Origin: a virus
Lineage: Duplodnaviria > Caudoviricetes
DNA: 52,143 nucleotides
Virus record (IMG/VR): IMGVR_UViG_3300048851_000225
Coordinates: 1-52,143 of that record
Direction: 5' to 3' (one strand)
Shown: positions 4,903-42,588 of the stretch, piece after piece
How the letters are laid out: every line of letters begins with the position of its first letter
How positions within the stretch are numbered: position 1 is the first letter of the stretch
Notes under the pieces: generated by a model
Told to the model about the DNA's origin: nothing
The model's database searches: none
The model's input: only the letters and a program-made list of their open reading frames with translations
Translations under genes and position numbers: made by a program

Positions 4903-5387
4903 GCCGCGTGCTCGCTGCAGGCTTCGACCGCCTCCGCATACAGCGCGTCCCAGGTCCGCCGATGCGGCTTGCCCGGGCGCCACGTGCGCAAGTACAGCTG
5001 CCATGCGCCCTGGGAGTCGCCGATTGCAGGGAGCGGGCCCGGGTCCGACCACAGCAGCAGCCGCGCGAAGCCGGCGGCCAGCACGTCGTCGTGCTCGAGC
5101 TGGTTGTAGACGTCGCGCGCCACCGCCTGTACGCCGCGCGCCGCGCACAACGTCACCGCATGCGCTGCGGTGGCCGCATGCCGCAGCACGCCCGCGACGC
5201 CACCGCCCTGCTCGAACTGCCAGAGGCCGCGCGCCGGGCCGCCGATCTGCTGGCGGTGCACCAGACGAGATTCCTGCAGGCCGATGGCCACCATCTGCAC
5301 GCGGCCGCGCGCGGAGTCCATGCGGGCAGGCAGCAGCGTCAGCGCCGGGTCGATCGCGGTGATGATCACCGTTTGCGTGTTGGCCAT
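4899..5387 (-). CDS. Endolysin (lysozyme-like fold)
   Basis: AIGLQESRL..RQ..GPARGLWQFEQGGGV and YLRTWRPGKP; lies between holins and spanins. Confidence 0.8.
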   Translation of the reverse strand: MANTQTVIITAIDPALTLLPARMDSARGRVQMVAIGLQESRLVHRQQIGGPARGLWQFEQGGGVAGVLRHAATAAHAVTLCAARGVQAVARDVYNQLEHDDVLAAGFARLLLWSDPGPLPAIGDSQGAWQLYLRTWRPGKPHRRTWDALYAEAVEACSEHAA

Positions 5388-5668
5388 ACCACTCCCCTGT
5401 TGATGTGTTTTTTGACGACGGTCACGACGTAGAAAGCCAGCGCGATCGAGAGGAACGTCGCTCCGTCGCTGATCCAGCCCTGCTCCTTGATCCGCCAGGC
5501 GGTACCGAGGGCGGCGATGGCCACCGCCGACAGCCCGATGCGTTCCAGCAGGGTGTCGTTGATGCGCGGTGAGAACACGGCGGCCGTCGCGCCAGCGAAG
5601 GTGATCAGCCAGCAGATGGCCGACACGACGGCCTGTGTGGTGATGAAAATGGCTTTGAGATCGTCCAT
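5366..5668 (-). CDS. Holin/antiholin-like membrane protein
   Basis: About three hydrophobic segments and a basic C-terminus. Confidence 0.65.
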   Translation of the reverse strand: MDDLKAIFITTQAVVSAICWLITFAGATAAVFSPRINDTLLERIGLSAVAIAALGTAWRIKEQGWISDGATFLSIALAFYVVTVVKKHINRGVVWPTRKR

Positions 5669-5669
5669 A

Positions 5670-5984
5670 TCAGCTGCTCCCCTTGCTGCCGCGGATGCGG
5701 TCGATCACTGCTTGCCAGAGGCCGCCAATGGGCGCCTGCTGGACCCACTCCCAGGCGCGCGACACCACGGCCATCCCGAAGAGTCCGAGCAGGAAGCCCG
5801 TCAGCCCCTCCGGCATGCCGGTGACGATCGCCAAGTGCGGGGCCGCGTAGAAGCTGATGAGCGAGCCGCTCGCGGCCATGCTCAGGCGGGCCGGCCAGCT
5901 GCCCTGCAGGTAGCGCATCGAGACGAGAGAACCGGCGACGCCCGCCAGTTGGGCCGCCAATTCGTCGAAGTTGATGTGGATCAC
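5670..5984 (-). CDS. Holin
   Basis: AGVAGSLVS...GFLLGLFGM hydrophobic segments; first gene of the lysis cassette. Confidence 0.7.
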   Translation of the reverse strand: MIHINFDELAAQLAGVAGSLVSMRYLQGSWPARLSMAASGSLISFYAAPHLAIVTGMPEGLTGFLLGLFGMAVVSRAWEWVQQAPIGGLWQAVIDRIRGSKGSS

Positions 5985-6048: not shown

Positions 6049-6690
6049 TCATTGCGGCGTCTCCGGCGCGGCGAGCCAGCCGTGGGCCACGCCGTAGTCG
6101 GTCAGGCCGGCCACCGTGTCCAGCGCGTCAAGCGCGGCGTGATGCGCCCGCTCCGACGCGAAGCAGTCCTGCACGTGCAGTGCGATCGCCGAGGCGATGC
6201 CGCGCAGCTCCGCAATGGTCAGCGTCACCCAGCCAGTCGCGGCCTTGAACTCCACCTGCGTGATGCCGGCGGCGTCGGCGTTGGCGATCACCGTCGTGAT
6301 GCGGTTCTGGTCTTCGGTGGCCGTGTTCACTCGCACGCCGCCCGGCAACTCGACGCCGCCGGTCTCCGCGTCGTAGCGCCGCGCCGTAGCCGTGGCCTTC
6401 AGCTGGTCGCGGAGACGCTGGACGCGGGACTCCGCTGACAGCGGAGTCGTCGACCAACCGCGCCGCCACTCCCCGTCCACGAGAGCCGGCGCGGTCGGGA
6501 GGATGGATTCGAAGTCTCCCTCCGGAGGCGGATCGATATGAATGGCAACCACCCCGTCGACGGCCATTCGTTCGTCGATGTTGTGCTCGCCGATCTGGTC
6601 CGGAAACATGACGTCTGGGTACGCTGCGCGGAGGTCGAGCGGATAATCCAGCTCGCCGCCGCTGTTGAGCTTGCCGAAGATGATGGTCAT
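6049..6690 (-). CDS. Tail fibre assembly protein (DUF4376-like)
   Basis: RYDAETGGV...FKAATGWVTLT...HVQDCFASE; start MTIIF at 6690. Confidence 0.75.
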   Translation of the reverse strand: MTIIFGKLNSGGELDYPLDLRAAYPDVMFPDQIGEHNIDERMAVDGVVAIHIDPPPEGDFESILPTAPALVDGEWRRGWSTTPLSAESRVQRLRDQLKATATARRYDAETGGVELPGGVRVNTATEDQNRITTVIANADAAGITQVEFKAATGWVTLTIAELRGIASAIALHVQDCFASERAHHAALDALDTVAGLTDYGVAHGWLAAPETPQ

Positions 6691-35787: not shown

Positions 35788-36792
35788 ATGCCTGCCCTTC
35801 CCTTGAACCAAGAACAAAAAGCCGACGCGGAGCGTCTCAAAGTCCTTTTCAAGCGCTGGCAACAGCTGCGGAAGGATGCCGGTCAGCCTGCATCGCAGGA
35901 CGCGGTGGCACCGCTATTCGGATTTGGGCAAAGCGCACTGAGCCAGTACCTCAATGGGGCAATCCCGCTCAACGTGGACGCGCTGACCAAGTTCGCCGAA
36001 TTGTTGGGCTGTGCGCCGGAGGACATCAGTCCTGAGCTGGCAAAGACCATCGGTCGCTATGCGATCTACACACCCACGCCGAAGCAAGGATTTGCCGTCG
36101 CAGACGAAGGTGCGGTGTATGGCGGACGCAAGTCCGCTGGCAAGGAGCGCGGAACGCTTCCGTGGCCCTTCCCTCGCATTCCAGAATCGCAATTGCGCGA
36201 GCTGCCGCCCGCCGACCTGGCTCGCGTTGAAGGCGCCTTGGCGCTTGCAATGGCGCAGTTGGGGCTCGGGGTGCAGGTAACGCCCGTCCTGCTGGCCGCT
36301 GAAGCCCAGGCACCAGCTTCTGTCCGCTCGCAACAGCCCGGCGACGTGTTGCCGCCTGGAGCAGCCGCCAACGATGACTACATCGAGATCAATCAGTACG
36401 ACGTGCGCTTTGCTGCTGGCGAGGGCACGCTCGCATTCGAGGCCAACCCGCGAAACAAGCTGGCGTTCCGCCGGTCATTCTTGCGCGCCGAGCGCCTGCG
36501 CGCGAAGAATCTCATCGTCGTCTATGCACAGGGCGATTCGATGGAACCGGTCGTCCCTCACCGGGCGGCGCTGCTGATCGACCGAGGCGCGCGCGACCTT
36601 GAGGATGGGGCGAACGGGAAGATTTTCGGCTTCCGCCTAGACGGCGAGCTGCGCGTGAAGCGCCTGGAGCGCCTGAACGACGGCAGCATCTGCGCGCACT
36701 CGTTCAATCCCGCGTACAAGCCGATCCACCTGGACGGCAGCAAGGACTTCGAGATCATCGGGCGCGTGGTGTGGATGGGGACTAGGCTGTGA
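35788..36792 (+). CDS. cI: CI repressor, HTH + S24 peptidase (334 aa)
   Basis: GQSALSQYLNG HTH; AAG cleavage site; GDSMEP Ser; VKRL Lys. Confidence 0.93.
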   Translation: MPALPLNQEQKADAERLKVLFKRWQQLRKDAGQPASQDAVAPLFGFGQSALSQYLNGAIPLNVDALTKFAELLGCAPEDISPELAKTIGRYAIYTPTPKQGFAVADEGAVYGGRKSAGKERGTLPWPFPRIPESQLRELPPADLARVEGALALAMAQLGLGVQVTPVLLAAEAQAPASVRSQQPGDVLPPGAAANDDYIEINQYDVRFAAGEGTLAFEANPRNKLAFRRSFLRAERLRAKNLIVVYAQGDSMEPVVPHRAALLIDRGARDLEDGANGKIFGFRLDGELRVKRLERLNDGSICAHSFNPAYKPIHLDGSKDFEIIGRVVWMGTRL

Positions 36793-37976: not shown

Positions 37977-38519
37977 CAATGAACAAGCGCACCCTGGTGA
38001 GTTCAATACGATGCACGCAGAGCAATCACGCAACTCGATGCGCGGCCCACGTGCTCGGTCAGGCTCGCAGGACTCATTCCTGCAACTCGATTGCTATTGA
38101 CACGTCGGTCAACAACTGTTGGGCGAAGCGTACCGCAAATTTGAGGCACGAAGTGTTCACAACGTAAATTTCCCGATCCGTCTAAACGGCGTCGCGAAGG
38201 TGCGACTGAACCACGCAAAGCCGCGTAGATCCTAGCAATCGCGGCGACGAAAACGTCGCACTGATCATTACCTGTCTCCATCAGATGGAGTCAGAAGCCG
38301 ATTTTGCAAATGATTTCAGTGCGTGAGGCGTATTAGCTGCCCAACGGTCAAAGTCGACCGTAAGAGCTATATCGGCATCCCTGCCCCTGGACTTGAGGGC
38401 GCATCTAATGTGTGAGGCGAAGCGCCACCCTCAGGCGGCTTTTCTTTGGGCGCTCAAAAAACGTCGGGTCTGAAGTCCCCTCAGGGCGTCGGAACCAAGC
38501 CACTGCTTCGTTCTTTTTT

Positions 38520-38561
38520 ATTAGTCCGGCTGTTGACACGCCCAAGCAGTCGGACTAATAT
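38520..38561 (+). promoter_or_regulatory. OL operators with pL
   Basis: ATTAGTCCGGCTGTT (38520) and AGCAGTCGGACTAAT (38545) match OR; TTGACA-17-TAATAT. Confidence 0.88.
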
Positions 38562-38644
38562 TTCTTCATCGCAGCAAACAACTGCGCCGCAAGACCCCTC
38601 GGCCCCGCAACCCATGCGGGAGGACGTATCCGCGACGAACACGG

Positions 38645-39097
38645 GTGGGGATGGGAAAGGAGAAAGAAGTGGAACGGTTCTGGGCAAAGGTGGACAAGAC
38701 CGGCGCGTGTTGGGAGTGGACGGCAGCCAAGGATTCATGGGGCTACGGACGATTCAGCATCGACGGGAAGCTCTACGGAGCGCACCGCGTTTCCTGGGAA
38801 TTGGCCTACGGCGATCTCCCCGACGACATGTCGGTTCTGCACCGCTGCGACAACCGCAAGTGCGTGAACCCTGGGCATCTCTTCCTGGGAACTCACCAGG
38901 AAAACATGCTGGACATGAAGTTGAAGAAAAGAAGCCGGTCCGGAGAAAGCGCACACCACGCCAAGCTCGGGCCGGCCTCGGTGGAGGAGATCCGATCACT
39001 CGCGGCGACGGGAGTGCTGCAGCGGGATTTGGCGCTGAAGTTCGGCGTCAGCACCCGTCAGATTCGCCGGATCTTGAGCAAGGAGAACTGGGCCTGA
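38645..39097 (+). CDS. HNH endonuclease with C-terminal HTH
   Basis: RFWAKV..CWEW..GYG..AHRVSW..VLHRCDN..CVNP.HL..GT..EN; LALKFGVS. Confidence 0.9.
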   Translation: MGMGKEKEVERFWAKVDKTGACWEWTAAKDSWGYGRFSIDGKLYGAHRVSWELAYGDLPDDMSVLHRCDNRKCVNPGHLFLGTHQENMLDMKLKKRSRSGESAHHAKLGPASVEEIRSLAATGVLQRDLALKFGVSTRQIRRILSKENWA

Positions 39098-39123
39098 GCC
39101 TGGTTCGAAGCAAGACGCAAGAC

Positions 39124-39134
39124 CGCTCCTTAAC
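39124..39134 (+). promoter_or_regulatory. boxA-like element followed by a hairpin
   Basis: CGCTCCTTAAC resembles lambdoid/rrn boxA; GCCGG-tagaa-CCGGC hairpin follows. Confidence 0.5.
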
Positions 39135-39336
39135 CATCGGCGCGCCGGTAGAACCGGCCGCCAACGATCCGATAAACAGTGCGCCCATGCATCGCATGAG
39201 ACTGCGCGCCAGCCCGACTCCCCTGGGGCTGAAGACAAACCAGGGCAATCCGTCAGGAACCGGAACGCTGCGCTCAATGAGGAGCGCGTATCGGCCTGGC
39301 GGGGACCGCGAGAGCGGCGCCTATCGAATGGGGGCG

Positions 39337-39431
39337 AGATACCCGAGTGCATCCGTTGACGTGGGACGCCAAGCCCACGGTGCACTGAGACGAGACGATT
39401 CGGCTGCTGGATACGGCAGCCGGCATCTACC
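39337..39431 (+). ncRNA. tRNA-like RNA unit 1
   Basis: AGATACC/GGCATCT acceptor-like stem (1 mismatch) stacked on GGCTGC/GCAGCC, then ACC. Confidence 0.4.
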
Positions 39432-39472
39432 GCCGCCCTGATGGCAGGACGGCGATTCATGCGGAGAAAGAT

Positions 39473-39748
39473 GTGGAGATCAACCAGTTGAAGCAGGTGA
39501 AGGTCGACGCCAAGACCCTGAAGATCCACTGCAAGGTCAGCGACCGCTTCACGTATGCGATCGAAGACGCGCAGGGCCAGACGATCCACGAACAAGACGA
39601 CGGCTACGTGCCGGACTTCATGCCCGGCGAACACTACGGCGACTACGTGATTCTGGACATCGATCTGGACACCGGCGTCGTGAAGAACTGGAAGGCGCCG
39701 ACGGCCGCGCAGATCGAGCAGGCCATCAAACCGCAAGACGACGACTGA
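39473..39748 (+). CDS. Acidic hypothetical phage protein
   Basis: KVSDRF...GYVPDFMPGEHYGDYVILDIDLDTG..NWK; GGAG SD. Confidence 0.8.
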   Translation: MEINQLKQVKVDAKTLKIHCKVSDRFTYAIEDAQGQTIHEQDDGYVPDFMPGEHYGDYVILDIDLDTGVVKNWKAPTAAQIEQAIKPQDDD

Positions 39749-39860
39749 ACGACCTGTCCTGCCCCGCCGGCAGGGCCATCACACATGCGCCTGGATAGAC
39801 ACTCGCATAGAACCTTGCCCGGAAGGCATCCCCTACTCACACAGGGCCGGGCGCAGTTGT

Positions 39861-39980
39861 GATGGTGAGCAAGACGCGCAGGCGATGCGCACGGTGCCCG
39901 AAAAGGGAGAACGACCAAGCCGAGCTCAGGGGCCACGCCCCGATAGCGCAAGCCGGGATCGCTTCCGGCCGCCATCAACC
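39861..39980 (+). ncRNA. tRNA-like RNA unit 2
   Basis: 7-bp GATGGTG/CGCCATC plus 5-bp GCCGG/CCGGC arm, internal hairpins, AACC tail. Confidence 0.55.
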
Positions 39981-40001
39981 CGACCCTTCCACAGGACTGT
40001 A

Positions 40002-40094
40002 ATGGATACGACAAACTTTCCGCGCCCCACACCGACGCCCATTCATCAACCGATTCCTACTCCGATGCCGTCGCCTCGCGAACGTCGCGGGTAA
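40002..40094 (+). CDS. Pro-rich peptide (30 aa)
   Basis: CAGGA SD; MDTTNFPRPTPTPIHQPIPTPMPSPRERRG. Confidence 0.35.
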   Translation: MDTTNFPRPTPTPIHQPIPTPMPSPRERRG

Positions 40095-40210
40095 CTGACA
40101 TCAATGTGCCCTGGAATCACAAGGGCACCCTCATACCCCGGAATGCAGATTCACCGGCCGACATGTGGGATACGCATGCGGCGGAGCTTGGTCGAACAGG
40201 CGCGGGATAT

Positions 40211-40324
40211 GAGGGTGAGCAGGAAACCAGCAGGTCACCGGACTATGTAAGCCGGCCAGCCAGGAACACCACGGCGGTAAGTCGTGCCGCTGGCATACGG
40301 GTAGCCCCCGGCCACCCTCACCCA
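40211..40324 (+). ncRNA. tRNA-like RNA unit 3
   Basis: Perfect 7-bp GAGGGTG/CACCCTC plus GCTGG/CCGGC arm, ACCCA tail. Confidence 0.55.
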
Positions 40325-40358
40325 ATGCGCCCGAAGCTGCGTCCGCAAGGCCAGATCT

Positions 40359-40413
40359 GAGGGGTAGACCGCCGCAACACCCAGGCGGGCAGTCCGGTGG
40401 AAGCCCGGCCCTC
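40359..40413 (+). ncRNA. Minimal tRNA-like RNA unit 4
   Basis: GAGGG/CCCTC plus CCGG-TGGAAGC-CCGG (7-nt loop). Confidence 0.4.
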
Positions 40414-40463
40414 TTCGGTTCCGCGCCCGGCGGGTATCTCCGGGCATTCCCCTTGGAGCACCG

Positions 40464-40667
40464 ATGATCCCGCGATGGCACAGCCCATACCTCGGCGGCG
40501 TCCGCTCGACTCGCGCCGAAGCCGACTACTACGACGGGCCCGACGACGAGCCCGACCCTGACCCGGACGCACACCGCTGGCCTCGTCGAGAGGCTGCCAT
40601 CAAACGACTGACCCGCTGGCGAGAGCGCCGGGCAGCAACCCAGGAAGCAACCCATGAACTGGCTTGA
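40464..40667 (+). CDS. Hypothetical protein
   Basis: GGAG SD; first gene after the RNA cluster. Confidence 0.55.
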   Translation: MIPRWHSPYLGGVRSTRAEADYYDGPDDEPDPDPDAHRWPRREAAIKRLTRWRERRAATQEATHELA

Positions 40668-40770
40668 TACCGCAATGCTCCTGCTCGCTGCTGGCGCGCC
40701 AACGCTGATCATCTGCGCGGCCGCCGAGGTGTGGATGAATGACCGGAAGTGGACGGGAGAAAAGCGATGA
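40654..40770 (+). CDS. Small membrane peptide (38 aa, not in track)
   Basis: MNWLDTAMLLLAAGAPTLIICAAAEVW...; ATGA coupling to the next gene. Confidence 0.45.
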   Translation: MNWLDTAMLLLAAGAPTLIICAAAEVWMNDRKWTGEKR

Positions 40771-41120
40771 GCAAGCAGGCACACACCCGCGGGCCCTGGC
40801 AGCAACTGCCCGAAGAGGTCGACAAGAGCTACATCCGCATCCGTGGAACGCAGCTGGGCCGCCGCTACAAGGTGGCGAACGTGCTGACCCCAACGTACGA
40901 AGGCGCGCCCGAGCAGGAAGCCGAACAGACGAGGGCAAACGCCCACCTGATCGCTGCCGCGCCAGACCTCCTGCAAGCGCTCATTGAGGTGACTGCTTCC
41001 CTCGCATGGAACGCGCACGGCGAGTGCCGGGCGGTTCACGACGGTCCAATCATGCCTTCAAGCCAGGCGGTCGGAGTAGCCCGCGCCGCGATTGCCAAAG
41101 CGACGGGGAGCGCGCCATGA
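40767..41120 (+). CDS. Phage protein of the HTPGPW...ANARLIAAAPDLL type
   Basis: HTRGPW, ANAHLIAAAPDLLQAL, ARAAIAKATG. Confidence 0.8.
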   Translation: MSKQAHTRGPWQQLPEEVDKSYIRIRGTQLGRRYKVANVLTPTYEGAPEQEAEQTRANAHLIAAAPDLLQALIEVTASLAWNAHGECRAVHDGPIMPSSQAVGVARAAIAKATGSAP

Positions 41121-41365
41121 CCCGACTCGGCGCCACGGCAGCACTCGCGGGCATCGTTTTCTGCGCGCTGCTCACCAGCCGCTTGGACACCGACGCGGGC
41201 CTCTACCCCACCCCTGAGACGCAAGTTCAGGAAGCGGTCGCAGACATGGAGCTGCGCGCCGCTGAGAACGCCTGCGGCGGTGACGCAATCAGGACGGGCC
41301 GCGGCATCCGCTGCACCCAGGACATCAATCAGGCGCTTGTCGCCAATGCAGGAGTGACGCGATGA
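41117..41365 (+). CDS. Hypothetical protein with N-terminal TM segment
   Basis: ATGA overlaps on both sides. Confidence 0.6.
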   Translation: MTRLGATAALAGIVFCALLTSRLDTDAGLYPTPETQVQEAVADMELRAAENACGGDAIRTGRGIRCTQDINQALVANAGVTR

Positions 41366-42588
41366 GCGCGCAAGCAATCGAAGTGCTGGACGCCCCGAGC
41401 AAGATCGTCGAGCTCACGGCGGTGGAGAAAGGCTTGGCCGAACTGCGGGCCGACCTGGCCGGCGTCGAGTTCGACGTCACCACGACGGCCGGCGACAAGG
41501 CGGCCCGCGCAGCGCGCGCTCGCTGCGTGTCCATTCGCACCGGTGCCGACGGCGCGTACGAGCAGTGGAACAAGCCGATGCTGGCGAAGCAGCGCGAGAT
41601 GCGCGCCCAGGTGGCGACGATCAAGAGCGCCGTGCTCGAGATTGAGCAGCCGATCGACGCGCAGATCAAGGCGCAGGAAGCGGTGAAGGCCGCCGAAAAG
41701 GCCGAACGCGACCGCATCGAAGCCGAGAAGCTGGCGGCAGCGCAGGGACGCATCGACGCGATCAACAGCTACGCGATCCGCGCCGCGACTGCGAATGCAG
41801 CCGGCATCCAAGACCTGCACGACGAGCTGGCCGGCATCGAGCCGGACCTTGAGACGTTCGGCAACCGAGCCGGCGAGGCGATCCAGGCGCGCGACAAGGC
41901 GCTGGCAACACTGGTCGACCTGCACCGCGCAGCGGTGACGCGCGAGGAGGCTGCGCGTGTTTTGGCCGAGCAGCAAGAGCAACTGCGCCAGGCCCAGGAG
42001 GCCCAAGCCGAGCGCGAACGCGTCGCAGCTGCAGCACTGGCCGAGCAAGAGCGCGTGGCGCGCGAGGCCCGCGAGGCCGAAGCCGCTCGGATCGCCCAGC
42101 AACGCGCGGCAGAGGACGCCGAGCGCGCTGCGGCGCAGAAGCGCCTCGACGAGCAGAACGCCGCGGCCGCCGCCGAACTGAAGCGCCAGCAAGATGCACT
42201 CGAAGCCGCGCGCCGTGCTGATCAGGAACGCCGCGACGCCGAAGCCCGCGCCAAGCGCGAGGCAGAGGAAGCCGAAGCGGCCGCTCGCCAAGCCGCAATC
42301 GACGCGGAGAACGCCCGGATCGCAGCCGAACATGAAGCCGAGCGCAAGCGAGTCCAGGCCGAGGCCGACGAGAAGGCACGCATCGAGCGCCAAGCCGCCG
42401 AAGCACGCCAGCGCCAGGAAGAAGCCGAGCGCGCCGCGCGCATTGCCGCCGACACCAAGCGCCGCAACGCATCCGGCTTGATGCACACCGCCCTCACCCT
42501 CTGGCGCGCCGCCGAGCAATCTGGCGACGCCGACGAGCTGCAAGCCGCCCGCCAGCTGCGCGACGAAGCGCTGGCCGAAGCCGAATAA
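41362..42588 (+). CDS. Long coiled-coil protein (408 aa)
   Basis: FDVTTTAG..AA N-terminus; A/E/R-rich heptads. Confidence 0.8.
   Translation: MSAQAIEVLDAPSKIVELTAVEKGLAELRADLAGVEFDVTTTAGDKAARAARARCVSIRTGADGAYEQWNKPMLAKQREMRAQVATIKSAVLEIEQPIDAQIKAQEAVKAAEKAERDRIEAEKLAAAQGRIDAINSYAIRAATANAAGIQDLHDELAGIEPDLETFGNRAGEAIQARDKALATLVDLHRAAVTREEAARVLAEQQEQLRQAQEAQAERERVAAAALAEQERVAREAREAEAARIAQQRAAEDAERAAAQKRLDEQNAAAAAELKRQQDALEAARRADQERRDAEARAKREAEEAEAAARQAAIDAENARIAAEHEAERKRVQAEADEKARIERQAAEARQRQEEAERAARIAADTKRRNASGLMHTALTLWRAAEQSGDADELQAARQLRDEALAEAE

What the first reader, a model, noticed from the sequence alone, without database searches (positions are those of the whole stretch)
39100..40460. 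Cluster of tRNA-like RNAs in the pL early leader
Seen: about 1.3 kb, mostly non-coding, densely packed with hairpins. At least four units share a fold but not a sequence: an acceptor-like stem stacked directly on a T-arm-like hairpin, three with an A/C tail (39337-39431 ACC; 39861-39980 AACC; 40211-40324 ACCCA; 40359-40413). Two arm loops read TGGATAC/TGGAAGC; units 2 and 3 both start GNNGGTGAGC and end CCGGC-C(A/G)CC. None has a canonical D-arm, anticodon arm or TTCGA loop. Established: acceptor+T-arm minihelices are what RNase P recognises, and phage P1 C4 and P4 CI RNAs are RNase P-processed. Inference: the first pL transcript is cut into several stable small RNAs with variable interiors, perhaps tRNA-mimic decoys against tRNA-targeting defences, antisense regulators, or processing signals for the embedded ORFs. 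This is my best candidate for an undescribed system.
Basis: partly seen in the sequence, partly recalled or inferred. Interest (0 to 1): 0.85.

Follow-up and report, generated by a model that had tools for sequence, protein, structure and literature searches.

The report
Structured RNA array in prophage leader
Two of the four proposed "tRNA-like" units belong to an uncatalogued family of roughly 110-130-base structured RNA modules that sit, often in tandem, in the early operons of some bacterial prophages; they are not tRNAs and what they do is still unknown.

Summary
The window is a provirus. Downstream of a promoter-like site with flanking inverted repeats lie two truly non-coding stretches (39098-39472, 39749-40463) around one real 91-aa gene. 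ARAGORN finds no tRNA and Rfam 15 no family.

They share their ends, a 7-bp closing stem (P1) and an adjoining 3' hairpin. Unit 3 belongs to a well-conserved ~120-130-nt family ("type A") seen in 18 records counting the window, with some covariation. Unit 2 belongs to a looser "type B".

New here: every unit is preceded by a 15-21-bp helix (P0). P0 pairs the unit's leader plus its P1 5' strand with an upstream copy of the unit's 3' end. P0 differs in sequence but stays complementary across about 15 versions, and it folds better on the sense strand. Predicted precursors use P0; isolated units use P1.

Relatives carry up to three such units in tandem, once followed by a genuine tRNA-Arg. One DNA run keeps unit 3's ends but has a different interior.

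Units 1 and 4 are not supported as the same kind.

Best reading: co-transcribed RNA modules matured by cleavage. RNase P involvement and any decoy role are untested.

The parts
38533..38561 (+). Promoter-like site (TTGACA-17-TAATAT), proposed as the early promoter, between the arms of an inverted repeat (38519-38532 and 38547-38560) read as operator-like
   Evidence: the one site found (listed at two spacings) against 0.6 +/- 0.8 expected; inverted repeat I6. L003 has a similar promoter-like site between inverted repeats upstream of the conserved leader. Function as promoter and operator is inferred.
38645..39097 (+). HNH endonuclease gene lying in the leader; no counterpart listed in relative L003
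   Evidence: Pfam HNH_3, 7.2e-16. Coding periodicity. L003 similarity starts only at 39112 and no HNH-like ORF was seen by eye among the ORFs listed for L003; L003 ORFs were not scanned against Pfam.
39112..39349 (+). Conserved non-coding leader block (nc1), function unknown
   Evidence: Nearly identical to L003 in alignment A1, which is 91% identical overall; an indel in L003 breaks the only candidate frame. A 224-nt contig of an RNA library spans 39131-39354. That is a weak hint only, because DNA can be present in such a library.
39337..39431 (+).
   Evidence: MFE is two hairpins, z -3.2. 39350-39386 is replaced in L003 while both ends are kept. It lacks the family's end motifs.
39473..39748 (+). 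orf91, a real conserved gene of unknown function between the two non-coding stretches
   Evidence: GC3 of 0.87-0.93. Relatives at 56-86% identity in 9 viral loci and 1 genome locus. No Pfam or PHROG hit.
39776..39865 (+). P0 helix of unit 2. The 5' arm (39776-39794) is a hairpin-preceded copy of the unit's 3' end plus tail. The 3' arm (39847-39865) is the leader plus part of the P1 5' strand.
   Evidence: Inverted repeat I1, 19 nt, 84% complementary. Duplex -34.6 kcal/mol, reached by 0 of 200 shuffles. The precursor MFE pairs 6 of 7 P1 5'-strand bases upstream.
39861..39977 (+). Unit 2 ('type B'). P1 pairs 39861-39867 with 39970-39976. The 3' hairpin is 39952-39969. The interior is variable.
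   Evidence: MFE and z -2.1. Relatives: L101, L006 and L116. The type A covariance model scores it 16.7 bits, E 0.11. Alignment A7 has 80.8% of cells paired against 26-45% when slid, but its covariation is not above shuffles.
39978..40075 (+). C-rich, G-poor spacer (C 42%, G 16%), resembling a Rho-utilisation tract
   Evidence: Composition. No coding periodicity. The Rho interpretation is inference only.
40126..40217 (+). P0 helix of unit 3. The 5' arm is 40126-40140 (CACCCTCA plus tail). The 3' arm is 40203-40217 (leader plus P1 5' strand).
   Evidence: Inverted repeat I2, 15 nt, 93% complementary. Duplex -26.3 kcal/mol, but 16 of 200 shuffles reach it. The precursor MFE pairs 7 of 7 P1 5'-strand bases upstream. 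Window 40125-40313, which holds P0, matches L003 at 93% over 190 aligned columns.
40211..40320 (+). Unit 3 ('type A'). P1 pairs 40211-40217 with 40313-40319. A bulged A is followed by a GC/GC extension. Then come internal helices P2-P4 and the 3' hairpin P5 (40298-40310).
   Evidence: MFE, z -2.2. Alignment A6 of 12 copies: 94.6% of cells paired against 27-56% when slid, and 4 pairs changed on both sides. Covariance model R1 scores it 113.9 bits. 10 of 12 copies have stops in all three + frames.
40359..40413 (+).
   Evidence: z 0.02, with 93 of 200 shuffles as good. Only a weak Rfam twister-sister match, 16.2 bits against a gathering score of 34. Similar GGTGGAAG-loop hairpins recur in L003, L095, L115 and L117.
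40395..40463 (+). Conserved 5' untranslated region of orf67, including the GGAG ribosome-binding site
   Evidence: 89% identity to L003 over 70 nt. Alignment.

Best explanation
The 39749-40463 tract is part of a modular array of structured RNA units that is co-transcribed with the early operon of this prophage. Each unit is about 95-145 nt long. It is closed by a 6-7-bp stem (P1) with a hairpin stacked against the stem's 3' strand. It starts with (T)GATGG-like bases and ends with CCATCA-like bases. Unit 3 is a well-conserved 'type A' RNA and unit 2 a looser 'type B'.

In the primary transcript the 5' strand of P1 is predicted to be held in a longer helix (P0, 15-21 bp). P0 forms with an upstream copy of the unit's 3' end plus a unit-specific tail.

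I infer a maturation sequence. P0 acts as a processing stalk and is cut by a double-strand-specific nuclease such as RNase III. Once the upstream arm is gone, P1 forms and gives a discrete RNA of about 110-120 nt with a minihelix-like end. Host tRNA-processing enzymes such as RNase P could then trim it.

Shown here: the family, the two helices, the strand that folds, the tandem arrangement and the absence from Rfam. Inferred: cleavage, stability, the enzymes, and any trans-acting function (regulation or counter-defence).
For: FAMILY.
- The shared ends occur exactly only at units 2 and 3 in the window.
- A pattern built from both ends found 21 viral stretches. By inspection 7 of these are true relatives.
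- A pattern from the 3' hairpin found 12 stretches, all bearing type A.
- A metagenome scan found 6 stretches, and all 6 were confirmed by model R1 at E<=2.8e-25.

STRUCTURE OF TYPE A (12 copies).
- 94.6% of cells are paired, against 27-56% when partners are slid.
- 0 of 500 shuffles reach the observed covariation score.
- Pairs changed on both sides: 3 in P1 and 1 in an inner helix.
- Similarity between the window and distant copies begins and ends at P1.
- It is not coding: 10 of 12 copies have stops in all three + frames.

P0 HELIX.
- It is present upstream of units in the window (I1 and I2) and in relatives.
- For 15 of 19 units, at most 1 of 200 shuffles reaches the duplex energy.
- The tail sequences differ between loci but stay complementary.

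STRAND.
- P0 is more stable on the + strand in 16 of 20 units, with 28 G-U pairs among 359.
- The whole of 39749-40463 gives z -2.6 on the + strand and +0.2 on the - strand.

TWO STATES. The precursor MFE uses P0 in 13 of 16 units and P1 in 1 of 16. The unit alone forms P1 in 15 of 16.

ARRAYS. L095 carries three units in a row (5378-5473, 5581-5688, 5757-5875) and then a true tRNA-Arg at 6059-6135 that scores 60.8 bits. L098 and L116 carry two units each.

NO SIGNALS OF THEIR OWN. No promoter-like or terminator-like site lies on the + strand between 38562 and 40800.

INTERIOR EXCHANGE. A DNA contig of run X2 matches 40127-40218 and 40308-40415 but has 113 other letters in place of the 89 between them.
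Against: - No RNA ends or abundance data exist for the units. The one RNA-library contig laid covers the other non-coding block (39131-39354), and such a library may contain DNA.
- Type A is so conserved (88% mean column identity) that most of its inner helices never vary. These are helices 2, 3, 4 and 6.
- The 12 aligned copies include near-duplicates.
- For unit 3 itself, 16 of 200 shuffles reach the P0 energy. For its closest relative L003, 110 of 200 do.
- In L003 the 3' strand of P1 is altered.
- The type B alignment of 4 sequences shows no covariation above shuffles.
- P1 is much weaker than P0, about -6 to -11 against -25 to -37 kcal/mol. P1 might never form, and its conservation could partly reflect its other role as the P0 arm of a following unit.
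- There is no CCA tail and no T-loop.
- The family is rare. No match was found in 50,697 phage records, in 72,556 plasmids or in the E. coli genomes (searched with the L101 type B stretch only). None was confirmed in the Burkholderiales representative genomes sampled: 151 searched with model R1 and 401 with a DNA pattern.
Confidence: 0.45

Rival explanations
1. Cis-acting leader switch. P0 and P1 are alternative pairings of an attenuator or processive-antitermination device. Together with the C-rich tract, the device sets how much transcription or translation reaches orf67 and the Erf and exonuclease genes. No stable small RNA is released.
For: P0 and P1 are mutually exclusive and share one strand. 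A C-rich, G-poor tract lies between the units (C 42%, G 16%). The element sits between a promoter-like site and the recombination genes. No terminator-like site was found on the + strand, which would fit factor-dependent termination.
Against: A simple switch does not explain several things: why up to three different units stand in tandem, why a tRNA gene lies inside the array, why type A keeps nearly its whole 120-nt sequence in phages whose flanks differ, or why interiors are exchanged while the ends stay.
Confidence: 0.2
2. Immunity-type antisense RNAs in the manner of phage P1 C4 or P4 CI. The unit is cut from the early leader and pairs with complementary sites in the same transcript to shut off downstream early genes. 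The exchangeable interiors would set immunity specificity.
For: The unit's 5' strand has one complementary copy upstream and one downstream. As I recall, this resembles a1b1/a2b2 around C4 and seqA/seqC around CI. The location is an early leader next to the S24-HTH repressor-like gene. The interior is replaced while the ends stay in run X2.
Against: The Rfam search, whose library I recall includes a C4 family, gave no match at E<=10. I found no conserved complementarity between unit loops and a ribosome-binding site. The 10-nt match between 39336-39345 and 40431-40440 is interrupted by an extra base in L003. The complementary copies pair with the closing-stem strand, not with exposed loops.
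Confidence: 0.12
3. DNA-level cassette system. P0 would be an imperfect inverted repeat that folds in single-stranded DNA and serves as a recombination site, as integron attC sites do. The 'units' would be exchangeable cassettes bounded by inverted 7-mers.
For: P0 has arms of 15-21 bp around a variable centre of about 35-105 nt, and it folds strand-specifically. Arrays have conserved boundary words. The interior replacement falls exactly between the boundary words.
Against: The boundary words CCATCAC and GTGATGG do not fit the attC core consensus as I recall it. Type A has conserved internal helices with a compensated pair, which a mere cassette would not need. The folding strand is the transcribed sense strand. 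No dedicated recombinase was identified next to the arrays, but I did not search for one.
Confidence: 0.08
4. tRNA-mimic decoys, one of the options the reader raised: the units imitate tRNAs to soak up host tRNA-targeting defence nucleases or tRNA-modifying enzymes.
For: A 7-bp end stem with a coaxial hairpin totals about 12-14 bp. A genuine tRNA sits in one array.
Against: ARAGORN finds nothing and the tRNA model gives no hit at E<=10, while the real tRNA scores 60.8 bits. The best hairpin candidate for an anticodon arm has a 6- or 8-nt loop whose variable bases are not at anticodon positions. There is no T-loop and no CCA.
Confidence: 0.07
5. Selfish or decaying repeat: remnants of duplicated sequence that spread by recombination and have no function of their own.
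For: The family is rare and patchy. Some copies look degenerate, for example the altered 3' strand in L003 and a half unit at the start of arrays.
Against: Pairing is maintained through different sequences in about 15 versions of P0. Type A is strongly conserved amid unrelated flanks. Folding is sense-strand-specific.
Confidence: 0.05

Closest known systems
C4 antisense RNA of phages P1 and P7 (I recall an Rfam C4 family) with its flanking a1b1 and a2b2 repeats
   Same: A small structured RNA embedded in an early (immunity) operon leader. Sequences complementary to part of it lie both upstream and downstream. As I recall, it is processed from the long transcript and RNase P makes the 5' end.
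   Different: No sequence or structure match came from the Rfam search at E<=10. Here the complementary copies pair with the closing-stem strand, not with loops. Units stand in tandem arrays of different types. No target ribosome-binding site was found.
CI RNA of satellite phage P4 with seqA, seqB and seqC (recalled; no model available here)
   Same: An arrangement of upstream copy, complementary segment and downstream copy within an early leader. As I recall, the RNA is released by processing that involves RNase P.
   Different: Membership could not be tested. The units here are larger (95-145 nt), occur as several types in tandem, and show no evidence of causing termination.
Phage tRNA gene clusters, including the stable non-tRNA RNAs of the T4 tRNA region (recalled)
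   Same: Co-transcribed arrays of small structured RNAs without promoters of their own. One relative has a true tRNA-Arg in the array. The ends have stem-plus-hairpin geometry.
   Different: The units fail every tRNA test run here. They have constant end words and a long inter-unit helix that tRNA clusters lack.
Large ornate prophage-associated RNAs GOLLD and ROOL
   Same: Long non-coding structured tracts in prophages, often beside tRNA genes. For this association I saw only search listings and abstract starts; the tRNA link is recalled.
   Different: No Rfam match at E<=10. Here the tract is a chain of separable, exchangeable modules, not one conserved large fold.
Integron attC sites and cassette arrays
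   Same: Strand-specific imperfect inverted repeats with variable centres, separating exchangeable segments bounded by inverted 7-mers.
   Different: The core words do not fit the attC consensus as I recall it. The 'cassettes' are about 90-100-nt non-coding structured segments. The folding strand is the transcribed one. No integron integrase was sought or seen.

Membership tests
tRNA | Recognised as a cloverleaf by a tRNA finder | tested here: not met
   ARAGORN finds 0 genes in the window. In 15 related loci it finds only the genuine tRNA-Arg of L095.
tRNA | Scores on the Rfam tRNA covariance model (gathering score 29 bits) | tested here: not met
   No tRNA hit at E<=10 in 38000-41500 or in 39800-40470. 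As a positive control, the L095 tRNA scores 60.8 bits.
tRNA | 7-bp acceptor stem with a hairpin stacked on its 3' strand | tested here: met
   Units 2 and 3 have 7-bp P1 stems with an adjoining 3' hairpin. The same holds across type A.
tRNA | 7-nt T-loop and 3' CCA (or a discriminator plus CCA) | tested here: not met
   In type A the loop of the 3' hairpin is 5 nt (TAGCN). In unit 2 it is 4 nt. The tails vary: ACCC, AACC, AAGC, ACTC, ACGG.
C4 antisense RNA (P1/P7) | Match to an Rfam C4 model (recalled to be in the library) | tested here: not met
   No such hit at gathering score or at E<=10.
C4 antisense RNA (P1/P7) | Flanking repeats complementary to the RNA, within an early or immunity operon | tested here: inconclusive
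   Upstream and downstream copies complementary to the unit's 5' strand exist. They pair with the stem strand, not with loops, and no target at a ribosome-binding site was found.
C4 and P4 CI RNAs | 5' end made by RNase P from a longer transcript | not testable with these tools
   This needs in vitro cleavage or 5'-end mapping. The RNA library laid is stored as contigs, which cannot show ends.
Retron non-coding RNA | Adjacent reverse transcriptase | tested here: not met
   No RVT_1 match in the whole 52-kb record.
GOLLD, ROOL and other Rfam families | Match to the family covariance model | tested here: not met
   0 matches at gathering score over the window. Nothing relevant at E<=10 or at E<=5 in the L095 array.
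Twister-sister ribozyme | Rfam score at or above 34 bits | tested here: not met
   16.2 bits, E 1.5-8.1, at 40376-40440, with part of the conserved core missing in the alignment.
Integron attC | Core sites fitting the attC consensus (recalled as RYYYAAC and GTTRRRY) | tested here: not met
   The boundary words read CCATCAC and GTGATGG, or CACCCTCA and TGAGGGTG. The consensus is recalled and comes from no call.
Integron attC | Neighbouring integron integrase | not tested
   I did not search for one.

The most novel reading that the evidence does not exclude
These are a new class of exchangeable RNA cassettes in temperate-phage early operons. Units with constant ends and swappable interiors are strung together. 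Each is locked in the precursor by a unit-specific helix (P0). Processing then releases each as a minihelix-ended RNA that acts in trans, either as a specificity determinant of immunity or as a counter-defence effector. Phages would shuffle these units much as integrons shuffle cassettes.
Probability: 0.25. Interest if true: 0.85.

Novelty: new variant of a known kind. Interest (0 to 1): 0.7.

Why it matters
Temperate phages are known to hide a few regulatory RNAs in their early leaders, and large enigmatic RNAs sit beside tRNA genes in other prophages.

This case adds a family that is absent from Rfam. Its design is unusual and testable: modules with constant ends, two mutually exclusive helices that both co-vary, tandem arrays that can include a real tRNA, and interiors that appear to be swapped between phages.

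If the modules are released as stable RNAs, they would be a new set of phage-encoded effectors or immunity determinants. They would also be a natural example of processing-coupled RNA refolding.

If they act only in cis, they would define a new kind of early-operon control in prophages of soil bacteria. A gene neighbour's relative lies in Castellaniella.

Tried and rejected
tRNA OR tmRNA GENES. ARAGORN found none.

KNOWN RNA FAMILIES. Rfam gave nothing at gathering score. At E<=10 it gave only weak hits to twister-sister, UCA1, PyrR208 and snoU82P, which I treat as chance.

RETRON. The 'AGC' after the stem recalled the branching-G context, but the record holds no reverse transcriptase.

HIDDEN SMALL GENES. 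The non-coding stretches show no GC3 periodicity. A frame is open across unit 3 in the window and L003 only; 10 of 12 type A copies have stops in all three + frames. An indel breaks the candidate frame in the leader block.

DATABASE LOOK-UPS THAT FOUND NOTHING.
- Phage records.
- E. coli genomes, searched with the L101 type B stretch only.
- Plasmids.

GENOME SEARCHES.
- Model R1 over 151 Burkholderiales genomes found nothing. Few candidates were scored per genome, so sensitivity was low.
- A pattern with one mismatch over 401 genomes gave 5 places in 4 genomes, while the control pattern hit in 3 genomes. R1 gave E<=1 matches in only 2 of the 5 loci (best E 0.31), neither at the pattern's place.

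OTHER ATTEMPTS.
- A pattern from the leader block found only L003's contig plus one stretch that looks like a chance match inside a coding region.
- My loose generic scan for the three-part arrangement was no better than reversed-sequence controls, 279 against 262. I replaced it with the anchored scan.
- The first look for relatives through neighbouring genes gave one locus for orf67 and 80 loci for orf123. None of these carried the non-coding elements.

READ LAYING.
- No laid contig of the RNA run covered units 2 or 3. Contigs show presence, not absence.
- The X5 joint (40218 to 40432) has only 22 letters on its shorter side and is not used as evidence.
- Small shares in runs X2-X7 are not used to name any habitat.

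LITERATURE. Searches on RNase P with antisense RNA and P1 immunity, GOLLD/ROOL with prophage and tRNA, tRNA-like with prophage and RNase P, phage tRNA-like decoys and six sequence motifs turned up no description of this family. I saw only listings and abstract starts and read no paper. Supplements were not consulted and could hold relevant motif lists.


Full report
SETTING. The window is a 52-kb provirus record of about 65% G+C. An S24-HTH repressor-like gene lies at 35788-36792. A promoter-like site (TTGACA-17-TAATAT, 38533-38561) lies between the arms of an inverted repeat. From there all genes run on the + strand: an HNH endonuclease gene (38645-39097), orf91 (39473-39748), orf67, orf123, a 408-aa protein, and Erf and exonuclease genes. 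The closest relative, L003, has a similar promoter-like site between inverted repeats. L003 runs from it into the homologue of 39112 onward, and no HNH-like ORF appears in its ORF list.

IS IT NON-CODING AND STRUCTURED? Codon-position G+C marks only the HNH gene, orf91 and the genes from 40464 on as coding. The stretches 39098-39472 and 39749-40463 show no periodicity. orf91 is real, with relatives at 56-86% identity in 9 viral loci and in one Castellaniella genome. ARAGORN finds no tRNA. Rfam 15 gives no match at gathering score and only chance-level matches at E<=10. Against shuffles, units 1, 2 and 3 fold at z -3.2, -2.1 and -2.2, and unit 4 at z 0.0. The whole 715-nt tract gives z -2.6 on the + strand (0 of 20 shuffles as good) and +0.2 on the - strand (11 of 20).

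UNITS 2 AND 3 ARE PARALOGUES OF A WIDER FAMILY. The start GANGGTGAGCA and the end CCGGCCRCCNTCA each match exactly only at these two units in the window.

A pattern joining both ends found 21 viral stretches. By inspection, 6 of them (L094, L095, L098, L100, L102, L107) resemble unit 3 throughout and one (L101) resembles unit 2. The other 14 share only the pattern and look like chance matches in other sequence.

A pattern from the 3' hairpin found 12 stretches, all bearing type A and five of them new. A metagenome scan found 6 more stretches, and covariance model R1 confirmed all 6 at E<=2.8e-25.

In total 'type A' was seen in 18 records counting the window. Some are near-duplicates, and one metagenome hit (L133) scores the same 95.7 bits as L003 and may be the same source.

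In the 12-copy alignment A6, similarity starts and stops at the closing stem P1. 94.6% of cells are paired, against 27-56% when partners are slid. Four pairs change on both sides, three in P1 and one in an inner helix, and 0 of 500 shuffles reach the covariation score. Ten of the 12 copies have stops in all three + frames.

Most inner helices never vary, so they are neither supported nor contradicted.

Unit 2 ('type B') has relatives in L101, L006 and L116. Its 4-sequence alignment keeps P1 and shows one compensated pair in the first hairpin. Its covariation is not above shuffles, with 121 of 500 shuffles reaching the score.

Upstream of each unit lies a hairpin followed by a copy of the unit's 3' end (CCATCAC, or CACCCTCA for unit 3). 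This copy and the bases after it are complementary to the unit's leader plus its P1 5' strand. In the window these are inverted repeats I1 (39776-39794 with 39847-39865) and I2 (40126-40140 with 40203-40217). The same arrangement appears in relatives, with different sequences that stay complementary.

For 15 of 19 units, at most 1 of 200 shuffles reaches the duplex energy. The exceptions are unit 3 itself (16 of 200), L003 (110), L119 (7) and L131 (16).

This helix, P0, has 15-21 pairs with 28 G-U among 359. It is more stable on the + strand in 16 of 20 units, so the folding strand is the sense strand.

P0 and P1 share the same 5-7 bases. With the upstream arm present, the MFE uses P0 in 13 of 16 units and P1 in 1 of 16. 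The unit alone forms P1 in 15 of 16. P0 is worth about -25 to -37 kcal/mol and P1 about -6 to -11.

Both partners co-vary with the shared strand, and they do so independently. In L117 and L102 the upstream and downstream partners differ from each other, yet each pairs with the shared strand through different wobble positions.

ARRAYS. An anchored scan found further unit types with the same end words. L095 has three units in a row (5378-5473, 5581-5688, 5757-5875), each with its own P0 formed with the tail of the preceding unit. A genuine tRNA-Arg follows at 6059-6135, scoring 60.8 bits on the Rfam tRNA model. L098 and L116 have two units each, and L002 has another type. In several relatives a conserved downstream domain with a compensated long-range helix separates type A from the next gene. 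The scan found no promoter-like or terminator-like site on the + strand within the window's tract.

HINTS FROM PUBLIC READS (contigs only). A DNA contig of run X2 matches 40127-40218 and 40308-40415 but carries 113 other letters in place of the 89 between them. The ends of unit 3 are kept and its interior is replaced. An RNA-library contig of 224 nt spans 39131-39354, the conserved leader block. This is weak evidence, because DNA can be present in such libraries and contigs cannot show ends.

UNITS 1 AND 4. The MFE of unit 1 is two hairpins. In L003 its ends and its strong second hairpin are kept while 39350-39386 is replaced by other sequence. That would be compatible with a stem plus a variable insert, but with two sequences and no variation in the stem it cannot be tested, and unit 1 lacks the family's end words. 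Unit 4 folds no better than chance, and only its 3' part aligns with L003. Its CCGG-TGGAAGC-CCGG hairpin recurs in relatives. It could be a T-loop-like motif, but that is my reading, not a test.

MECHANISM. Shown: a family of structured modules on the sense strand; two conserved, mutually exclusive helices; tandem arrangement that can include a tRNA; and no Rfam match. Inferred: the modules are co-transcribed with the early operon; P0 holds each in a precursor form and is a plausible double-strand nuclease site; after cleavage P1 forms and gives a minihelix-ended RNA that tRNA-processing enzymes might trim.

The rivals, with my odds, are listed separately. They are a purely cis-acting switch, possibly working with the C-rich tract 39978-40075; C4- or CI-like immunity RNAs; DNA-level cassette sites; tRNA-mimic decoys; and functionless repeats.

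COMPARISON AND NOVELTY. The nearest known things are:
- the P1/P7 C4 and P4 CI RNAs;
- phage tRNA clusters;
- GOLLD and ROOL;
- integron attC arrays, in form only.

Membership in each was tested where possible and was not met. Five literature searches found no description; I saw listings and abstract starts only.

The family is rare. No match was found in the phage and plasmid collections, in the E. coli genomes searched with the type B stretch, or in the Burkholderiales genomes sampled.

I file it as a new variant of the known kind 'structured RNAs embedded in phage early operons', with a real chance that it is something further away.

Noticed in passing
window 38645-39097: An HNH endonuclease gene sits between the promoter-like site at 38533-38561 and the conserved leader. 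Relative L003 shows no HNH-like ORF in its ORF list (judged by eye), so this looks like a free-standing homing-type insertion into a leader.
   Followed up: partly
window 39112-39349: A non-coding leader block of about 235 nt is nearly identical in L003 and is matched by contigs of run X5. A 224-nt contig of a metatranscriptome library spans 39131-39354. It has no Rfam match, and the - strand folds better than the + strand (z -2.6 against -1.2).
   Followed up: partly
window 39978-40075: A C-rich, G-poor tract (C 42%, G 16%) lies between units 2 and 3. It resembles a Rho-utilisation site. Similar C-rich runs follow type A in several relatives.
   Followed up: no
window 39336-39345 and 40431-40440: A perfect 10-nt complementarity links the end of the leader block to the stretch just upstream of the orf67 ribosome-binding site. 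In L003 the downstream copy has one extra base.
   Followed up: partly
window 40376-40440: A weak Rfam match to the twister-sister ribozyme (16.2 bits against a gathering score of 34) is centred on the CCGGTGGAAGCCCGG hairpin. It is probably chance, but such ribozymes are known from phage contexts (recalled).
   Followed up: partly
L095 5180-6267: A non-coding tract of about 1.1 kb holds a conserved 'start' module (CCATCAACGCCTGCAT...), three units, a further conserved module with a GGTGGAAGTCC hairpin, a tRNA-Arg(TCT) and a conserved terminal domain, all before the next gene.
   Followed up: partly
L094, L098, L100, L102, L116, L117, L118 downstream of type A: A conserved domain of about 130 nt has a long-range helix that changes on both sides between loci (GCAGCACCC/GGGTGCTGC against GCAGCCCTCC/GGAGGGCTGC). 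It ends just before the next gene's ribosome-binding site.
   Followed up: no
window 39473-39748: orf91 has no Pfam or PHROG family, yet it is conserved at 56-86% identity in mosaic contexts in ten other loci, four of which carry units nearby.
   Followed up: partly
L094, L115, L119: In three provirus records type A lies within about 55-175 nt of the end of the held locus, probably the contig end. The predicted prophage boundary or contig break may therefore fall right after the array.
   Followed up: no
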